64,000 nt of DNA from a virus, in IMG/VR virus record IMGVR_UViG_3300045988_169645. One strand, 5' to 3'. Under the pieces are notes generated by a model that saw only the letters and a list, made by a program, of their open reading frames with translations, ran no database searches and was not told the DNA's origin. Positions 52,471 through 59,293 of this stretch are shown here, one piece after another; positions within the stretch are counted from its first letter, which is position 1; every line of letters begins with the position of its first letter. Both the position numbers and the translations under genes were made by a program.

Positions 52471-54303
52471 TTAAGCCCCCACGTTAACTCTACTTAAAAC
52501 TTCTTCAATCTCTTTACCATTTAATGTTTCATACTCAAGTAGAGCCTTTGCTAACTTCTCTACTAAGTCGTAGTTTTTAGTTAGTAAATCAACAGTTTCT
52601 CCATAGAGCTCTTTAGACTTTCTCTGCATAAGTTCAAAAGCATTTGACTTATCAATAATCTGTCTTTCAGCTAAAACATTCATATCTAAAAGACCAAATT
52701 CTTCCTCAAAACCAAGCCTTGACACATATTCCTCTAATATACCTGTAGCTTGAGTGATATCGGAAGAAGCTCCTTGAGTAACTGAATTAAACTTAATTTG
52801 CTCACTTGCTCGACCTGCATAACAAATCTTTACTCTATTTTCATAATACTCTTTTGTAAGGAACTGTGTATCTGAATCCTCTCCGAAAACTACCCCTCCT
52901 ACTCCTGAAGTTGTACCAATAATTGATGCTCTTGACATAGGTTCACCTAATAGGTAATGCATAACTGCATGACCTGCTTCGTGGTAAGCTACAATTTTCT
53001 TATCCTCCTTGAAGTGTTCTTCTTTAGCTCTATTGCCTTTGAATACCTTCTTATCAATGGCTTCTTCCAAGCAAGCCATATCAATAAAAGGTTTCTTGTG
53101 CATTACTGCTATAATACTTGCTTCATTGCAAATTGCTGCAATATCAGCACCCGTGAAACCACTAACTTGTTTAGCTAAAGTTTCTACATCAATATCACTT
53201 GCCACTGAAAACTGCTCAAGATAAAATTCAAATAACTTAACTCTTACTTTCCAATCTCTAGGCTTATTTACAACAATCTGTCTATCAAAACGACCTGCTC
53301 TTGTAAGTGCGGAGTCTAATTTATCAGCTCTATTTGTAGCTGCTATGATAAACACACCATCTCGACCAGTAAAACCATCCATCTCCTGAAGTAAAGCATT
53401 GATTGTCTGCTCATTTTCAGTATTACTACCCCTAGTGTCTCGCTTAATACCGATTGAGTCGATTTCGTCAAAGAACACTATACAAGGTGCATTTTCTCTT
53501 GCAATTTTGAAAGTCTCTCTCACTCGTTTTGCACCTAAACCTACAAACATTTCAATAAGACTTGATGAATTTACATATATGAAAGGCACTCCTGCTTCTC
53601 CTGCAATAGCCTTTGCTATCAAAGTCTTACCAGTTCCTGGCTCACCTGAAAGTAAGATGCCTTTCGGTACTTTAGCACCAATCTCCTCACCTAAATCTCT
53701 ATTCTTAAGCAATTCTGTAATGAACTTTACATCATCAAGAATTTCATCCTGACCAATTACATCTGAAAACTTTACATTGCTTGTCTGGATAATATCTTTG
53801 GCTTCTACCCCTTTCGTTTGATCTTTCATCATTCGCATAATAATTACAATCCAAATAATAGGTACTGCTAAACTTACCATCATACTAAACATATCTACAA
53901 CAGTTGTATTATTTCTATCTAATACAAGATGTACATCGTGTTCGAGCATATCCTTTCTAAATGTATCGTATGCAGGATATTGAACTCTACGCTTGTCCTC
54001 ACTCTTGTATATGTATTCTTCTCGTTCCTCTTGAGTCATATCCTTAGTGTCATCATTTAGTAATGTATAAGTCATCCACTCATCTGAAGCACTATAATAT
54101 ACAGTATCAACCTTTCCGTTTTCTACATCATCAAGAAACTCTGTATATTCGACTTTTTCAATCTTAGCAATTTGCTGTGTCTTCACACTATTCATTATAG
54201 AGAACAGGCAAATAATACAAACTGTCCAAGATACTAATGCTCTTATGACTTTCTGTTTATTCTGCTTAATAAATTCTTTCAGTTTATTCCAGTTATCTTT
54301 CAA
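52471..54303 (-). CDS. ftsH: FtsH-like membrane-anchored AAA+ ATP-dependent zinc metalloprotease
   Basis: Two N-terminal TM helices. Walker A GEPGTGKT. IVFFDEIDSIG. Second region of homology ATNRADKLDSALTRAGRFDR. HEAGHA zinc site. TTG start with an AAGGAGG ribosome-binding site. Confidence 0.9.
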   Translation of the reverse strand: MKDNWNKLKEFIKQNKQKVIRALVSWTVCIICLFSIMNSVKTQQIAKIEKVEYTEFLDDVENGKVDTVYYSASDEWMTYTLLNDDTKDMTQEEREEYIYKSEDKRRVQYPAYDTFRKDMLEHDVHLVLDRNNTTVVDMFSMMVSLAVPIIWIVIIMRMMKDQTKGVEAKDIIQTSNVKFSDVIGQDEILDDVKFITELLKNRDLGEEIGAKVPKGILLSGEPGTGKTLIAKAIAGEAGVPFIYVNSSSLIEMFVGLGAKRVRETFKIARENAPCIVFFDEIDSIGIKRDTRGSNTENEQTINALLQEMDGFTGRDGVFIIAATNRADKLDSALTRAGRFDRQIVVNKPRDWKVRVKLFEFYLEQFSVASDIDVETLAKQVSGFTGADIAAICNEASIIAVMHKKPFIDMACLEEAIDKKVFKGNRAKEEHFKEDKKIVAYHEAGHAVMHYLLGEPMSRASIIGTTSGVGGVVFGEDSDTQFLTKEYYENRVKICYAGRASEQIKFNSVTQGASSDITQATGILEEYVSRLGFEEEFGLLDMNVLAERQIIDKSNAFELMQRKSKELYGETVDLLTKNYDLVEKLAKALLEYETLNGKEIEEVLSRVNVGA

Positions 54304-54351
54304 TGTTTAATCCTCCTTGTAATAACTTCTTTAATATATAAAAAATAACTA

Positions 54352-54627
54352 TCACCTAAATGCAGAGAACTTCTTACCCTCTACCCCTCTCGCATACTCT
54401 TCTAAAGCCTTTAAATTCTTTGAGAACGCATATATTACAGTGTCATCTAAATTAAAATCTGATGGTACTAATATATAAAATTCTGAACTGTGATTTACTA
54501 GCCATACCTCATAATAGCATTCTACAGGAGTATCGTAAACAAAAACCTCTCCTTCTTGACTGTAAGGCTGTTCCTTGTAACTTTTAACAACTTCTTCATA
54601 TTTGGCTTCTGACGTTATTTTACTCAT
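54352..54627 (-). CDS. hypothetical small protein
   Basis: 91 aa ORF between the flotillin terminator and ftsH. Confidence 0.4.
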   Translation of the reverse strand: MSKITSEAKYEEVVKSYKEQPYSQEGEVFVYDTPVECYYEVWLVNHSSEFYILVPSDFNLDDTVIYAFSKNLKALEEYARGVEGKKFSAFR

Positions 54628-54675
54628 AATATGCCTCCTAAAACATTTATAACATATAATTATAATACAGAATAT

Positions 54676-54704
54676 TAAAAAAGGACTAGGGAATTTCTCC
54701 CTAG
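54676..54704 (-). terminator. Rho-independent terminator (minus strand) after the flotillin-like gene
   Basis: CTAGGGA-gaaat-TCCCTAG followed by TCCTTTTTT on the minus strand. Confidence 0.6.
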
Positions 54705-54722
54705 CCCTCGCAAGAAGTAATA

Positions 54723-56266
54723 TTACTTCTTTTCGGTTGTGATATTGACATTGTTTTCTGTCTGAGCCTGAATTGTGTTAGCCTTCATAGCATCAGTTAA
54801 ATCGAATCCAGTTGTTTCTTTAACTGTCTCGACAACCTTTGCTAATGCTGTCGGTACATAATCTGTAACCTGAGCTACCCCATCAACTCCTCCAATAATG
54901 GAAATCTTGTCAATCTGCTCCATAGGCTTCGCAATTGCACCTGCAATCTCAGGTAACTTGTCGATAATCATCTGAGTTACACCTGCCTGATTCATCTTCT
55001 GCATAGCCTCTGCTCTTCTCTCAAGACCTTCAGCTTCTGCAAGAAGTTTTGCTCTTGTAGCTTCAGCCTCAGCAGAACCCTTCTTAGAGATAGCATCAGC
55101 CTCGGCTTCTGCTTTCTTACGAATTGCATCTGCCTGAGCTACTGCTGTAGCTGTAATGGCGTCTGCATCAGCCTGTGCGTCAATTCTCTTCTTTTCAGCT
55201 TCTGCCTCTGCTTTCTTGATAGCATTGAACTTAGAAGCCTCAGCCTCCTGCTCCTGTTTCTTACGATTTGCCTCAGCAGGTTTAACTACCTCTGAAAGAA
55301 GTTTCTTTTCCTTCTCAACAGCCTGCTGTTCTGCAAGTTCAGTGTTCTTCTGAGCCTGTGCAATCTGTACCTGAATTTCAGCCTCAGTAATCTCTTTCTG
55401 TCTTTGCTGTCTTACAAGTTCTGCATCTGACTGAGCCTGAATAACATCTTTCTCAGTAATCTTTGTCTGAATCTCACCTGCAAGTGCTGCTTTAGCCTGA
55501 GCCTTAGCTGCTTCTTCATCGTACTGAGCCTGCTTAACTGCCTGTTCTTTCTCAGCTTCTCTTACCTCTGTTCTCGCTTTGATTTTAGCCTGTTCTCCTG
55601 CACGAATATTCTCGGATGTTTTCTCATCCTGTTCACGCTGAGCATCAGACTTCTGAACCTCTGCATCCTTACGTCTCTGAGCGATTGTACCATCGCCTAA
55701 AGCCTTTATGTAACCATTCTCATCAGAAATATCTGTGATTGTGAAGTTCTTGACTTCAAGTCCCATTGTACTTAACTCAGTACCAACGACTTCCTGAACT
55801 CGACTAGAGAAACTTTCTCGGTTTGCATACAAATCTTCAACAGTCATTGTTGCAATAATCTCACGAAGTTTACCTTCAAGTACAGCAACAGCAGTTGACT
55901 TAATGTTATCAATGATTTCATTCTCATTTCTACCAGTAAACTGCTCAATAGCTGTAAGAATACTATCAGTAGAATTACTTACCTTAATAACAGCAGTAGT
56001 GCAAACTGAAATAGGAAACCCTTCATCGCAAGAGATTTGTTAGTCTCAACATGAAGTGGAATATTACCAAGTGAAATGTAGTCTATTCGTTCCAAACCCG
56101 GAATTACTAAGCCACCTCCACCAGTGATTACTCTCTTCTTAAGACCTGTAATAACACCTGCTTTATCCTGTGGTACTTTCTTCCACATAGAAAAGATAAG
56201 TGCTAATACCACAACTACTGCAACAGCAATTGCGACAATTGGTAACATCTGATTTAACATAGTCAA
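54723..56266 (-). pseudogene. flotillin-like SPFH/band-7 protein carrying a -1 frameshift (N-terminal part 55979..56266, remainder 54723 to about 56040)
   Basis: N-terminal ORF gives TM + KRVITGGGGLVIPGLERIDYISLGNIPLHVETN. The other frame continues QISCDEGFPISVCTTAVIKV...TMTVEDLYANRESF and a long Ala/Glu-rich flotillin tail. The join is at the AACAAA run around 56026-56036. Confidence 0.7.
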
Positions 56267-56338
56267 ATCCTCCTTATAATATTAAATTTTCAAAGTGCTC
56301 ACTCAAGATGTCTACCCCTTGATTTACTTTGCAAATAT

Positions 56339-56367
56339 ATTATAACATGGAACTTACCAAAAGTCAA
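56339..56367 (-). promoter_or_regulatory. near-consensus sigma-A-type promoter (minus strand): TTGACT - 17 nt - TGtTATAAT, upstream of the flotillin-like gene
   Basis: Minus-strand read TTGACTTTTGGTAAGTTCCATGTTATAAT. Confidence 0.6.
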
Positions 56368-56384
56368 GCATAAATCAAATAAAA

Positions 56385-56627
56385 TTAAACTTTATTTAAA
56401 GCTTTACCGTCAACTAATAGGAATAACTCTGCGATAGTTTTGATTTCTGTATACGGTTCATACTCCTTATATCCCTTTATATCTGATACTGATACAATTT
56501 GCAACTCATCTCGCATAGCTAAAGATAATGCACCAAATAAATACTTCATTTCACGCTCATTTTTGGTCTTGTAGTAACAAGAACCTTGCTTATCTCGTTC
56601 AGCAACTACTATTGTACTTGTAAGCAT
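56385..56627 (-). CDS. hypothetical small protein
   Basis: 80 aa ORF between the NfeD-like and flotillin-like genes. Confidence 0.4.
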   Translation of the reverse strand: MLTSTIVVAERDKQGSCYYKTKNEREMKYLFGALSLAMRDELQIVSVSDIKGYKEYEPYTEIKTIAELFLLVDGKALNKV

Positions 56628-56636
56628 ACGATACCC

Positions 56637-57167
56637 CTACATTTCTTTTACCAAAACATAATCATCTTTAAACTCTACAATACGAACCTTAGCACCTTGC
56701 TTGATATCTACTCCTGATACAGACTTAGCTGTTAAACTTACAGAAGAATCTCCAAATCTTTCAGCTACTATACTGCCAAAACCGTTTGCTGGTATAGTAT
56801 TTACAACCTTACAATTACTATACTTTAATAGTGATTTATCATCGGCTTCTGACTGATGTTTTTTAAGATACTTTGTAAAAGTTTGAACTAAAACAGCACC
56901 TACATAAGCTACTATTCCTCCAATAATATTTCTTACAATATATGGTAATGGGTTTAAAAGTAAACCCATTCCTCCAAATAACACTGATGCTAAACAAATT
57001 GCTCTCATAGATATAGGTAAAACACAAATATCAAGGTCTCCAATATCTACATCGAAGCCATCAAAGTCAATAAGTCCTGCAATAGACTCAAAACTATCAA
57101 GAACTAACGTAACTAACATAACAATAAGACCAACACTTATGCAATAAAAATATACTGTATTACTCAT
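56637..57167 (-). CDS. NfeD-like membrane protein (membrane segment + C-terminal OB-fold), the usual operon partner of SPFH/flotillin proteins
   Basis: N-terminal TM helices. C-terminal CKVVNTIPANGFGSIVAERFGDSSVSLTAKS...GAKVRIVEFKDDYVLVKE is typical of the NfeD beta-barrel. Confidence 0.6.
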   Translation of the reverse strand: MSNTVYFYCISVGLIVMLVTLVLDSFESIAGLIDFDGFDVDIGDLDICVLPISMRAICLASVLFGGMGLLLNPLPYIVRNIIGGIVAYVGAVLVQTFTKYLKKHQSEADDKSLLKYSNCKVVNTIPANGFGSIVAERFGDSSVSLTAKSVSGVDIKQGAKVRIVEFKDDYVLVKEM

Positions 57168-57169
57168 AA

Positions 57170-57409
57170 TTAAACCTCCTTATTGTACTGAAATGTTATG
57201 CTTGGGTAATTCATTTCTCTAAAGAATCTTGAAAAACCAGTTATATTATCTGCTGATAAAATACCTAAACTTACAAGAATAAGAGGACTTATTACAGAAA
57301 AACTTGCACCTGTATCCACTACTAAAGGAGTTTCAATATCATCATCTTTCTTTAGCTCCGCTGTACAGATATACTGTCTATAATCTTTAATATAATTAAA
57401 TTTAATCAT
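57170..57409 (-). CDS. retropepsin-like (clan AA) aspartic protease, short
   Basis: PLVVDTGASFSVIS carries the D-T-G-A catalytic motif. 79 aa. The upstream 57410-57690 region contains only stop-riddled fragments. Confidence 0.5.
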   Translation of the reverse strand: MIKFNYIKDYRQYICTAELKKDDDIETPLVVDTGASFSVISPLILVSLGILSADNITGFSRFFREMNYPSITFQYNKEV

Positions 57410-57670
57410 AATCTACCCCCTAATAATGGGTAAAAACACTTTCTACCAGTGCCTCTATTAAAAGCTATCAACTCATCTCTGTAGATATAGTCACAGAAAG
57501 CGTATACAATCATCTTATACCCCGTAGACTCATCAAGTTCAAAATCTTTATTTATTGAACATATAGGTGCTACCTCATTATCTCTTCACCAAACAAATGA
57601 TGTTTCAAAGGGCTCATCAAATACATTTAGATTGCCTTCTTTATGATATGGTGGTAAATCTACTGACTTT

Positions 57671-58045
57671 TTAGGAATTACTTGTAGCATTATTTGCCTC
57701 CTCAATCATTCTTTGTGTTTCTTCCTCTGAAATGCCTAAAACTACTCTATTGTACCAAAATGACTCTGTGTAAATTTCATTTCTCAAATCCTGTGGTAAA
57801 GGCTCTTTTCTTAATATCATGTCCTCTGCCTGTGATATTAAACTTTCATAATGCTGTGCTCGTTTCTTTACTTCTCCGTACAACTCTGTATCTGAAAAGA
57901 TATCAAAAGCTACTCCTAATTCTCTTAATACCTCTCTTTTTCTAATTCTATAAGCGACTCCACTACCCCCTATACTCATTCTCGGTACAGTTATTTTTGC
58001 ATCTTTAAAATTTAACTTAGCAAACTCTTCCTCTGCATTAAACAT
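57671..58045 (-). CDS. hypothetical protein
   Basis: 124 aa ORF. Confidence 0.45.
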   Translation of the reverse strand: MFNAEEEFAKLNFKDAKITVPRMSIGGSGVAYRIRKREVLRELGVAFDIFSDTELYGEVKKRAQHYESLISQAEDMILRKEPLPQDLRNEIYTESFWYNRVVLGISEEETQRMIEEANNATSNS

Positions 58046-58556
58046 TTGAATACCTCCTTAAATATATAACACCATAAGCTTTCAAAAGATTTATTGACTC
58101 TTTAAAATTTAAGTCTTTTATTACTTTAGTCAACTCTGGTAACTCTGACGTCTTAATCAATATATTTGCTATACCATTATTTTGCAGAGCCATTACAAAA
58201 TAAATACCATCATTGTCCGCAAAACTTACTAAATCAGTTTTAGAAAAACTACTGCAACTCGGATGATTATGTAAAAATAAGTATCTATGCATATGTAAGT
58301 CTTTACTATATTTTACATAATCATCTAAATTTACAGTCAATTGCACCTTATTTTCAATACCCTTAAACCATTGACTCCTTGTTAAATCAAAACTATCTAA
58401 TAATATACCACATTCATTAGAATCATTTTTATCCCTAGCTACCTGTAATAACTGTTTACTATAAACTTCTAAAATCTTACAAGTATTTTCATCATGATAA
58501 GGTAAATTTTTGATACTCACCCTATTTATATCTTCGTCTGTTATATAATGTTTCAT
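58038..58556 (-). CDS. RadC-like JAB/MPN metalloprotease-domain protein
   Basis: LFLHNHPSCSSFSKTDL fits the JAMM H-x-H-x(6-7)-S-x-x-D motif. Confidence 0.5.
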   Translation of the reverse strand: MKHYITDEDINRVSIKNLPYHDENTCKILEVYSKQLLQVARDKNDSNECGILLDSFDLTRSQWFKGIENKVQLTVNLDDYVKYSKDLHMHRYLFLHNHPSCSSFSKTDLVSFADNDGIYFVMALQNNGIANILIKTSELPELTKVIKDLNFKESINLLKAYGVIYLRRYSNV

Positions 58557-59293
58557 ACTTTAAATACTTCCTTAAAAGCCTTATAATTAGCTCCTCTAGG
58601 AATAGCAAAAACAACTTTATCGAAACAACTACCCCTCAAAGCTTCCTTAAATAAAGTAGCTACCTCTATAGGGTCTTGCTTAAAAACTCCACAACCAAAA
58701 GCACCTAATATCAAGGTCTTTACATTATTCTCAGATGCAATATCTACTACAAACTTAATTCGCTCAGCTAATGCTTTAGAATTCTCCTCTTCCGTAAAAC
58801 TATTATGCTGAAACATAATAGATTTATTTGGTGCTGGAACTGTAATAACAGAACAGTTAGTCTTATTATCAAATACAACATCTGGTGAATATAAGCCTCT
58901 ATTCATATACAAACCTCTATTTGTATGATTTCTATTCCACTCATAAAACATAGCATCAAATGTTGAAATAACACTATACAAATATGAGTGTCTACAAATG
59001 TCTTCCTCTTGAGCTGAACTACCCCTCATATAGCCTCCACCTGGGAACTTATACGAAGCGAAGTTTAAAACAGCCATATTTTCTGAACTGTATTTGTGAA
59101 TTGCACTAACTGAATCTAAATCAGCTATCTCGATGCTTGGTAAATCACCTGACATTTCAAGTTTGAAATCTCGCTCATAAACTTTAGTTCTGGCTATACT
59201 AGATTTGATATTTTCTCCGTATCTAACCTGCATATTTTTATTATTCTCAATAGCTCTTTTTGCTAACTCACTTTTTCTTGACCTGTAGTCCAT
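58553..59293 (-). CDS. bacterial-type poly(ADP-ribose) glycohydrolase-like macrodomain protein (DUF2263-type)
   Basis: FPGGGYMRGSSAQEE matches the PARG signature GGG-x(6-8)-QEE. Macrodomain glycine-rich segment ILGAFGCGVF. Confidence 0.7.
   Translation of the reverse strand: MDYRSRKSELAKRAIENNKNMQVRYGENIKSSIARTKVYERDFKLEMSGDLPSIEIADLDSVSAIHKYSSENMAVLNFASYKFPGGGYMRGSSAQEEDICRHSYLYSVISTFDAMFYEWNRNHTNRGLYMNRGLYSPDVVFDNKTNCSVITVPAPNKSIMFQHNSFTEEENSKALAERIKFVVDIASENNVKTLILGAFGCGVFKQDPIEVATLFKEALRGSCFDKVVFAIPRGANYKAFKEVFKV

What the first reader, a model, noticed from the sequence alone, without database searches (positions are those of the whole stretch)
58038..59293. Adjacent JAB/MPN (RadC-like) and PARG-type macrodomain genes: a candidate conjugation-reversal / de-ADP-ribosylation pair
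- The two genes overlap. One has the JAMM motif HNHPSxSSFSKTD. The other has the PARG signature GGG-x7-QEE plus a macrodomain Gly-rich loop.
- JAB domains remove ubiquitin-like or cGAS-type conjugates. PARG/macro domains remove ADP-ribose or bind and hydrolyse ADPr-derived signals.
- Together they look like an erasing counter-defence module, for example against ART toxins, DarT, or Cap2-type conjugation.
Basis: partly seen in the sequence, partly recalled or inferred. Interest (0 to 1): 0.65.

Follow-up and report, generated by a model that had tools for sequence, protein, structure and literature searches.

The report
PARG beside a polymorphic JAB toxin-immunity cassette
The two genes are a genuine bacterial poly(ADP-ribose) glycohydrolase and a divergent JAB-fold hydrolase, but the JAB gene's true partner is the small gene after it, and this pair, swapped as matched alleles between strains, looks like a toxin-antidote cassette related to effector domains carried in gut-phage heads, not a phage counter-defence pair with PARG.

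Summary
On the minus strand, 58553..59293 encodes a bacterial-type PARG (PF10021, TIGR02452) with an intact GGG-x7-QEE signature. 58038..58556 encodes a 172-aa JAB/MPN-fold protein, "X", with invariant NxxxE, HNHP, S and D. The two genes overlap by ATGA.

The window is a gut Firmicute chromosome, not a phage. PARG-X adjacency was found only at this one syntenic locus.

The conserved unit is X plus the next gene, "Y" (57671..58045, 124 aa, helical).
- Y-like genes follow nearly all full-length standalone X homologues in unrelated contexts.
- At this locus, three matched pairs (X1-YA, X2-YB, X3-YC) are exchanged as a ~600-bp cassette within and across species.
- Orphan Y copies occur.
- X is repeatedly disrupted while Y stays intact.
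- Elsewhere, the X domain is mostly the C-terminus of phage MuF, minor-capsid or portal proteins.

Best reading: X-Y is a polymorphic JAB toxin/effector with a cognate immunity or antitoxin protein. PARG is a co-located, probably independent, ADP-ribose-removing "enzymatic immunity" gene. Toxicity and substrates are untested. I rate it a new variant of a known kind, of moderate interest.

The parts
58553..59293 (-). Bacterial-type poly(ADP-ribose) glycohydrolase (PARG, TIGR02452/PF10021), 246 aa. RBS GGAGG lies 6 nt upstream of the ATG.
59003..59041 (-). PARG catalytic signature GGG-x7-QEE (residues 85-97).
   Evidence: It aligns to GGGFLGGAQAQEE of DrPARG.
58682..58705 (-). PARG diphosphate-binding Gly-rich loop GAFGCGVF (residues 197-204).
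58038..58556 (-). X: a 172-aa JAB/MPN-fold hydrolase of an unnamed family. It is allele type X1 and the predicted toxin/effector.
58407..58427 (-). X motif NDSNECG (the NxxxE element; E48 is the predicted catalytic Glu).
58233..58271 (-). X motif HNHPSCSSFSKTD (H96, H98, S105, D108; the JAMM-type metal site).
57671..58045 (-). Y: a 124-aa helical protein of allele type YA. It is the predicted cognate immunity/antitoxin of X. It overlaps X by 8 nt and has a strong GGAGG RBS.
57800..58395 (-). Swapped allelic cassette: the JAB core of X (from about codon 55) plus roughly the first 82 codons of Y. It is non-homologous to a same-species strain whose flanks are 96.5% identical at the DNA level.
57586..57690 (-). 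34-codon remnant of a 94-aa gene that is intact downstream of Y in other strains. It belongs to the variable region, and membership in the system is uncertain.

Best explanation
Two modules sit side by side in one co-directional, translationally coupled gene string on a gut Firmicute chromosome.

(1) PARG. It is a catalytically intact bacterial-type poly(ADP-ribose) glycohydrolase. It most likely removes ADP-ribose from RNA, protein or DNA that has been modified by ADP-ribosyltransferase toxins, acting as an 'enzymatic immunity' or repair function. This role is inferred from family knowledge.

(2) X-Y. This is a cognate two-gene cassette. X is a cytoplasmic JAB-fold, metal-dependent hydrolase with the catalytic residues E48, H96, H98, S105 and D108. 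X is predicted to be harmful to the cell through peptidase or nucleic-acid-processing activity. Y is a small helical protein predicted to bind and neutralise its own X allele.

The cassette is polymorphic. Matched X-Y alleles are exchanged by recombination between the conserved 5' end of X and the conserved 3' end of Y. Orphan Y genes accumulate, and X decays while Y persists. The X domain is the same domain that uncultured gut phages carry at the C-terminus of MuF, minor-capsid or portal head proteins. That places it among phage-delivered effector or 'MuF polymorphic toxin' domains.

Shown here: the domain identities, the fold, the motif conservation, X-Y linkage across unrelated contexts, allele co-variation, the recombination breakpoints, purifying selection within allele types, and the asymmetric loss of X.

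Inferred, not shown: the toxicity of X, direct X-Y binding, the substrate of X, and the independence of PARG.
For: Identity of PARG and X.

X-Y as a unit:
- Nearly every full-length X-family gene in about 60 loci has a tightly coupled small downstream ORF.
- The small ORFs after standalone X genes form one family with Y, sharing the motif P..EEI..R...E..LGI...FD...G..VP.EL.
- Their neighbours otherwise differ: ComM/DprA, ClpX, SbcCD, a histidine kinase and others.

Co-variation:
- X1-YA, X2-YB and X3-YC are always adjacent across 15 loci.
- Orphan YA or YB copies follow X3-YC in L007 and L070.

Cassette swap:
- The same-species strain L008 has flank proteins 98-99% identical and PARG 95% identical, but X is only 47% and Y 50% identical.
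- DNA homology breaks at window 58395 and resumes at 57800.
- The types are trans-specific. In L098 PARG is 72% identical, yet X is 87% and Y 81% identical.
- dN/dS within an allele type is 0.11-0.21.

Direction of toxicity:
- X is disrupted while Y stays intact in L010/L011 (in-frame deletion of the catalytic core), L175 (40-nt deletion) and L178 (113-aa remnant).
- Further truncated X variants occur on long contigs.

Phage link:
- 568 cluster representatives match the X profile.
- 29 of 39 long X-domain proteins carry Phage_Mu_F, Phage_min_cap2, VG15 or portal N-termini.
- The best viral fold matches are gut siphovirus 'minor capsid proteins'.

Literature:
- JAB toxin domains with the NxxxE/HxH/S/D signature have been predicted in polymorphic toxins (PMC3482391).
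- MuF toxins have downstream immunity genes (PMC5576092).
- Bacterial PARGs reverse RhsP2 RNA ADP-ribosylation and protect cells (PMC11833690).
Against: - No experiment shows that X is toxic or that Y binds it.
- Y has no recognisable fold match, and no complex model could be made.
- One contig, L078, has an intact X with a frameshifted Y. It has 6.8x coverage, so this may be an assembly error.
- The small ORFs after the phage MuF-X fusions are unrelated to Y, so an 'immunity' partner is not demonstrably conserved across both contexts.
- PARG-X translational coupling (ATGA) is retained in every orthologous locus seen. A functional tie to PARG therefore cannot be excluded.
- X lacks any secretion or delivery domain, so it is not a classical polymorphic exotoxin.
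- Only three PARG-homologue contexts were sampled.
Confidence: 0.5

Rival explanations
1. Tripartite system. PARG, X and Y work together. For example, this could be an ADP-ribosylation-linked defence or TA system in which PARG is a second antidote or a regulator, or in which X acts on an ADP-ribosylated or conjugated substrate that PARG also processes.
For: The ATGA overlap between PARG and X and the 8-nt overlap between X and Y are conserved in all orthologous loci across at least two or three species. PARG evolves faster than the flanking housekeeping genes: about 72% identity against 90-95% for FtsH and the DHH-like protein.
Against: All PARG-X adjacencies are orthologous, so they count as one evolutionary event. 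X homologues elsewhere never have a PARG neighbour. Sampled PARG homologues never have an X neighbour. Cassette swaps replace X-Y but leave PARG unchanged.
Confidence: 0.15
2. X is a non-toxic RadC-like nucleic-acid-processing or repair enzyme, and Y is its adaptor or regulatory subunit. The allelic diversity reflects horizontal replacement without any conflict function.
For: Six of 19 family members give sub-threshold RadC hits. The only PDB sequence match is RadC 2QLC around the HNHPS motif. One X-Y module sits next to comM and dprA. RadC-clade JAB domains have been proposed to act on nucleic acids (PMC5512222).
Against: A housekeeping enzyme would not be expected to show any of the following: three deeply diverged, strictly co-varying allele pairs at one site, orphan Y copies, repeated X loss with Y retained, or a main niche as a phage-head-borne C-terminal domain.
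Confidence: 0.15
3. One reading: a JAB and PARG pair acting as a phage or mobile-element counter-defence 'eraser' module against DarT, ART toxins, Thoeris or Cap2-type conjugation.
For: Both domain assignments are correct. Phage MuF-X fusions could be injected anti-defence effectors (PMC5512222). A PARG homologue lies on a contig that looks like a conjugative plasmid.
Against: The context is chromosomal and non-mobile. There is no PARG-X co-occurrence beyond this locus. X is frequently inactivated while Y is retained. X co-diversifies with Y, which an eraser enzyme would not need.
Confidence: 0.07
4. X-Y is an inert remnant of a degraded prophage head module: a MuF C-terminal domain plus its neighbouring gene.
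For: The X domain is predominantly found in phage head proteins.
Against: Purifying selection acts within allele types, with dN/dS of 0.11-0.21. The catalytic residues are intact. Both genes have their own RBSs. Standalone X-Y modules are widespread in non-phage contexts. No other phage genes lie at the locus.
Confidence: 0.05

Closest known systems
Bacterial-type PARG (DUF2263 / PF10021 / TIGR02452; D. radiodurans DRB0099, T. curvata PARG, S. coelicolor SCO0909)
   Same: The window protein matches the full-length family above the curated cutoffs. It has the GGG-x7-QEE catalytic signature and the Gly-rich diphosphate loop, and it aligns to the solved structures 5ZDF and 3SIG.
   Different: Identity to the solved enzymes is only about 30-40% over the aligned stretch (read off the alignment; the tool reported no figure). 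The genomic context differs from the DrPARG operon with an RNA ligase and a Pnkp-like enzyme. The substrate here is unknown.
[quoted passage not shown] 2012, PMC3482391)
   Same: X is a JAB fold used as a predicted toxin with a downstream immunity gene. Its signature NxxxE, HxH, S, D is identical to that reported for Tox-JAB-1.
   Different: X does not reach the Pfam Toxin-JAB1 threshold; 1 of 19 members hits at E 0.055. Tox-JAB-1 is RHS-linked, secreted and found in Bacteroidetes. X is standalone and cytoplasmic, or MuF-fused, in Firmicutes and their phages. The partner Y is a new family, not shown to be related to Imm65 or Imm-NTF2.
MuF polymorphic toxins / MuF-fused injected effectors of temperate phages (Jamet et al. 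2017, PMC5576092; Iyer et al. 2017, PMC5512222)
   Same: Homologues of X are C-terminal domains of Phage_Mu_F, minor capsid protein 2 or portal proteins, followed by a small ORF.
   Different: The window gene has no MuF domain and is not in a prophage. A JAB domain of this family was not found by name in what could be read of those papers: the main texts of both, and the stored supplementary files of PMC5576092, one of which was truncated.
RadC-like JAB domain (PF04002)
   Different: X is below the Pfam threshold. The His-to-Ser spacing is one residue shorter. X has an extra N-terminal helical segment with the NxSNE motif and an obligate small partner gene.
Cap3 (type II CBASS) and BilC (Bil system) JAB deconjugases
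   Different: No Cap2, E1/E2, CD-NTase or Ubl genes lie nearby. There are no PADLOC hits. Sequence identity is 12-15%.
DarTG and other ADP-ribosylation TA systems with a macrodomain antitoxin
   Same: In both, an ADP-ribose-removing macrodomain-superfamily enzyme lies adjacent to a putative toxin gene.
   Different: No ART or DarT toxin is present. PARG is of the PARG clade, not DarG-type. The adjacent toxin candidate is a JAB hydrolase with its own partner Y.

Membership tests
Bacterial-type PARG (PF10021 / TIGR02452) | A match to the family profile above the curated cutoff. | tested here: met
   PF10021 scores 100 bits against a cutoff of 23.5. TIGR02452 scores 192.3 bits against 50 and covers residues 16-245.
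Bacterial-type PARG (PF10021 / TIGR02452) | The catalytic signature GGG-X6-8-QEE and the diphosphate-binding Gly-rich loop. | tested here: met
   GGGYMRGSSAQEE lies at residues 85-97 and GAFGCGVF at residues 197-204. Both align to the DrPARG motifs.
Bacterial-type PARG (PF10021 / TIGR02452) | Hydrolysis of ADP-ribose O-glycosidic linkages. | not testable with these tools
   This needs an enzymatic assay.
JAB/MPN+ (JAMM) metallohydrolase superfamily | The JAB (deaminase-like) fold. | tested here: met
JAB/MPN+ (JAMM) metallohydrolase superfamily | The conserved Glu plus the H-x-H-x7-S-x2-D metal-binding motif. | tested here: met
   E48, H96, H98, S105 and D108 are invariant in 19 standalone homologues and 39 fusion homologues. 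The spacing is x6 rather than x7.
RadC family (PF04002) | A match to the Pfam model above the gathering threshold. | tested here: not met
   The window protein gives no hit. Six of 19 relatives hit only at E >= 0.0066.
Tox-JAB-1 (PF15659) | A sequence-profile match and RHS/secreted architecture. | tested here: not met
   One of 19 relatives hits at E 0.055. No RHS or signal sequence is present. Only the residue signature NxxxE/HxH/S/D coincides.
MuF polymorphic toxin | An N-terminal MuF (PF04233/PF06152) domain fused to a variable C-terminal toxin domain, encoded in a (pro)phage. | tested here: not met
   The window X is standalone and chromosomal. Its homologues do meet the feature: 25 of 39 have MuF or minor capsid protein 2 N-termini.
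Toxin-immunity / type II toxin-antitoxin pair | A tightly linked two-gene unit conserved across unrelated genomic contexts. | tested here: met
   Y-family ORFs follow X homologues in more than 25 distinct loci.
Toxin-immunity / type II toxin-antitoxin pair | Cognate co-variation of the toxin and antidote alleles, and the presence of orphan antidotes. | tested here: met
   Three strictly matched allele pairs and orphan YA/YB copies were found. The cassette breakpoints were mapped.
Toxin-immunity / type II toxin-antitoxin pair | The toxin inhibits growth, and the antidote neutralises it by direct binding. | not testable with these tools
   Support is indirect only: X is lost with Y kept in L010/L011, L175 and L178. 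L078 is a counter-example.
Type II CBASS Cap3 / Bil BilC deconjugase | Encoded in an operon with E1/E2 (Cap2 or BilB/D) and a CD-NTase or Ubl gene. | tested here: not met
   The neighbours are DUF4234, DUF2752, PARG, Y and FtsH. PADLOC gives no hit.

The most novel reading that the evidence does not exclude
X-Y is the first recognisable example of a large, unnamed JAB-fold toxin/effector family. The profile search recovered at least 568 representatives at 50% clustering. Gut phages would inject this domain from their heads as MuF/portal fusions, and bacteria would keep it as a balanced, trans-species polymorphic toxin-immunity (or abortive-infection) locus. In this lineage PARG would have been recruited as a functionally coupled third component, linking ADP-ribose removal to control of the JAB toxin.
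Probability: 0.12. Interest if true: 0.75.

Novelty: new variant of a known kind. Interest (0 to 1): 0.45.

Why it matters
JAB/MPN hydrolases are known as deubiquitinase-type peptidases and, in bacteria, as Cap3/BilC deconjugases. JAB 'toxins' have been predicted from sequence, and I found no biochemical study of one in these searches.

This locus offers a compact natural test system. It has three matched X-Y allele pairs, orphan Y genes and natural X-null variants. With these, one could ask what a toxin-type JAB domain attacks and how a small helical protein blocks it specifically.

The same domain sits on the head proteins of many uncultured gut phages. Its activity therefore bears on what temperate gut phages inject into their hosts.

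The adjacent PARG adds a case for the recent proposal that bacterial PARGs are stand-alone immunity enzymes against ADP-ribosylating toxins.

Tried and rejected
- Pfam, NCBIfam, PHROGs and PADLOC scans of X and Y gave nothing above threshold.
- A PDB sequence search with X alone found nothing meaningful. With the family profile it found only a weak RadC motif match.
- The Y structure model (pLDDT 72.5) had no significant Foldseek match in the PDB.
- The search for related loci with the 19-sequence alignment failed because no conserved stretch was long enough. I replaced it with a degenerate DNA pattern for F-x-HNHP-x4-FS-x2-D.
- The genome-contig scan with PARG returned only a 30%-identical Hallerella locus, so the organism could not be named. 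Cluster look-ups show metagenome sources only.
- tblastn of X, and of a MuF-borne X domain, against cultured phage and plasmid collections gave no match.
- hhalign of the Y family against the small ORFs after the phage MuF-X fusions showed no relationship.
- The promoter and terminator scan was not above the shuffled expectation.
- The afdb50 fold library was unavailable.
- I rejected the view that X-Y is a prophage remnant, given purifying selection and intact motifs.
- I rejected a Cap3/BilC-type deconjugase, because no E1/E2/Ubl partners are present.
- I rejected Y as the toxin, because intact Y persists where X is destroyed and also occurs as orphan copies.
Full report
**1. Observation**

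On the minus strand, ORF 58553..59293 (246 aa) and ORF 58038..58556 (172 aa, here called X) exist as described. They overlap by the 4-nt ATGA.

The 246-aa protein is a bacterial-type PARG.
- It matches PF10021 at E 2e-28 (100 bits against a 23.5 cutoff) and TIGR02452 at 1.1e-56 (192 bits against 50).
- It matches the solved D. radiodurans and T. curvata PARGs at 7.6e-26 and 2.9e-19.
- It carries GGGYMRGSSAQEE at residues 85-97 and GAFGCGVF at residues 197-204.

X has no hit above threshold in Pfam, NCBIfam, PHROGs or PADLOC, nor in PDB sequences. Three results nevertheless place it in the JAB fold.
- An AlphaFold2 model built from eight homologues is confident (pLDDT 85.9, pTM 0.83).
- In 19 diverse homologues the invariant residues are N44, S46, E48, H96, N97, H98, P99, S105 and D108. 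The same residues are invariant in 39 long fusion proteins.

The His-to-Ser spacer is one residue shorter than in canonical JAMM or RadC proteins. 'RadC-like' is only loosely right: RadC and Prok-JAB hits in the family are all sub-threshold.

**2. Context**

All genes in the window lie on one strand, and the GC content is about 33%. The locus is chromosomal. The order is NERD, HD, YkuD, a DHH-like 305-aa gene, DUF4234, DUF2752, PARG, X, a 124-aa gene (Y, 57671..58045), a strain-variable stretch, FtsH, and then a metallophosphatase and type IV pilus genes.

The identical X occurs on many long contigs, up to about 390 kb, most of them labelled human-gut metagenome where a source is given. The organism could not be named. 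Nothing phage-like lies nearby.

**3. The real partner of X is Y**

Y overlaps X by 8 nt and has a strong GGAGG RBS. Four lines of evidence tie X to Y.

(a) X and Y travel together outside this lineage.
- A profile of X finds 568 cluster representatives at E<=1e-3.
- A degenerate DNA pattern for the motif fetched 37 viral and 120 metagenome loci.
- Nearly every full-length X-family gene has a tightly coupled small downstream ORF.
- The ORFs that follow standalone X genes (189-197 aa) form one family with Y. They share the pattern P..EEI..R...E..LGI...FD...G..VP.EL.
- The surrounding genes are otherwise unrelated: ComM/DprA, ClpX, SbcCD, a histidine kinase and others.

(b) X and Y alleles co-vary at this locus.
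- Three deeply diverged X types (47-53% identical) are each always followed by one Y type: X1-YA, X2-YB and X3-YC, across 15 loci.
- Orphan YA or YB copies lie after X3-YC in L007 and L070.

(c) The pair is exchanged as a cassette.
- Strain L008 belongs to the same species as the window. Its flank proteins are 98-99% identical and its PARG 95% identical, yet X is 47% and Y 50% identical.
- DNA homology of 96.5% stops at window 58395 (about X codon 54) and resumes at 57800 (about Y codon 82).
- Conversely, L098 has a PARG only 72% identical but X 87% and Y 81% identical. The allele types therefore cross species boundaries.
- Within a type, dN/dS is 0.11-0.21, so both genes are under purifying selection.

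(d) Loss is asymmetric.
- X is destroyed while Y stays intact in L010/L011 (in-frame deletion of the HNHP core), L175 (40-nt frameshifting deletion) and L178 (113-aa remnant).
- Further truncated X variants sit on long contigs.
- The reverse case was seen once, in L078, a 6.8x-coverage contig.

This pattern is what a toxin with a specific antidote shows: a conserved two-gene unit, strict allele matching, orphan antidotes, and a dispensable enzyme gene. Y itself is predicted to be a four-helix protein (pLDDT 72.5) with no fold match.

**4. Where the X domain comes from**

- Of 39 long proteins that contain the X domain, 16 have Phage_Mu_F, 9 have minor capsid protein 2, 3 have VG15 and 1 has a portal N-terminus.
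- In viral contigs these fusions sit in head-morphogenesis modules.
- The best viral fold matches are 'minor capsid proteins' of 485-633 aa from uncultured gut siphoviruses, with TM up to 0.77.
- MuF-fused C-terminal domains are interpreted in the literature as toxins or effectors packaged in the head and injected with the DNA, often with a downstream immunity gene (PMC5576092; PMC3482391; PMC5512222).
- JAB toxin domains (Tox-JAB-1 and Tox-JAB-2) have been predicted, and Tox-JAB-1 carries the same NxxxE/HxH/S/D signature. X does not match the Pfam Toxin-JAB1 model.
- The small ORFs after the phage fusions form their own family, unrelated to Y.
- No homologue was found in the cultured phage or plasmid collections.

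**5. Is PARG part of it?**

The ATGA coupling of PARG and X is kept in every orthologous locus. These loci, however, represent a single evolutionary origin.
- Among roughly 100 X-homologue loci, PARG appears only in three syntenic ones.
- Three PARG homologues at about 50% identity sit in other contexts without an X-like neighbour. The contexts are a contig that looks like a conjugative plasmid, a site beside an RNA ligase/kinase/phosphatase gene, and a site beside an HhH-GPD glycosylase.
- Cassette swaps leave PARG untouched.
- Bacterial PARGs were recently shown to reverse RhsP2-type 2'-OH RNA ADP-ribosylation and to protect cells as immunity enzymes (PMC11833690).

The most economical reading is a small conflict island. 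PARG would be a stand-alone enzymatic immunity or repair gene, placed next to a polymorphic JAB toxin-antidote cassette and further variable small genes. A functional tripartite system is not excluded; I estimate it at about 15%.

**6. Mechanism proposed (inferred)**

X binds a metal through H96, H98 and D108, with E48 acting as the general base, and hydrolyses a cellular target. The target could be a peptide or isopeptide bond. It could instead be a nucleic acid or nucleotide, as has been argued for RadC-clade and toxin JAB domains. Y binds its cognate X and blocks it.

Allelic diversification is maintained either by inter-strain incompatibility or by an arms race with phages that carry related domains or antidote mimics. 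Recombination uses the conserved 5' 160 nt of X and the conserved 3' 130 nt of Y as homology arms.

**7. Verdict**

PARG is an ordinary member of a known family. X-Y is an undescribed family-level variant of the known JAB toxin/effector plus immunity theme, with an unusually clear natural polymorphism.

My confidence is about 0.5 in the composite explanation. It is about 0.9 for the domain identities and about 0.8 for X-Y being a cognate pair.

Noticed in passing
window 54723..56266 (minus strand): The flotillin (SPFH/Band 7 plus Flot) gene is split into 95-aa and 374-aa ORFs by a 1-nt deletion near 56018, relative to the intact 512-aa gene in strain L002. It is either a pseudogene or a sequencing error.
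   Followed up: partly
window 54300..57670; loci L001-L010, L177, L178: The stretch between Y and ftsH varies between strains. A 94-aa gene survives here only as a 34-codon remnant (57586..57690). A 186-aa retropepsin-like gene (PF13975 in L008) survives only as 79 aa (57170..57409). The 176-aa ORF, DUF6718 and flotillin genes are present or absent between strains. A paralogous 91-94-aa family recurs (for example window 54352..54627). The region may be a polyimmunity or accessory island.
   Followed up: partly
L016, L022, L031, L043, L017, L160 (viral and metagenome contigs): Phage MuF/minor-capsid-X fusion genes are followed by a conserved 57-73-aa ORF family (motif ..NLSE.D...L...AEPY.ED.P..R.FDG..D..R..AT.AK). 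It is unrelated to Y and could be the phage-side immunity protein or a head gene.
   Followed up: partly
L171, L172, L173: PARG homologues at about 50% identity sit in three other contexts: on a contig with conjugation genes (TraG/PrgI/Rep3), next to an RNA ligase/kinase/phosphatase gene (as in the D. radiodurans DRB0098-0100 operon), and next to an HhH-GPD glycosylase in Blautia.
   Followed up: partly
L007 1461..2771: An IS605-family OrfB/TnpB (Cas12f-like) gene is inserted upstream of the locus in a related species.
   Followed up: no
L078 2937..3312: One contig (6.8x coverage) has a frameshift in Y while X is intact. This is the opposite of the usual pattern and is either an assembly error or a counter-example to X being toxic.
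   Followed up: partly
window 60035..60952 and 61013..61423 (minus strand): The conserved 305-aa protein has no Pfam hit here, although one source names it a nanoRNase/pAp phosphatase (DHH-like). The upstream 136-aa ORF has a single hydrophobic segment and an extremely Asp/Glu-rich tail.
   Followed up: no
P0006, P0010/L175, P0004/L178, P0011/L010: Several different deletions remove or frameshift the region just upstream of, or including, the HNHP motif of X in different strains. This suggests recurrent inactivation and not a single inherited lesion.
   Followed up: partly
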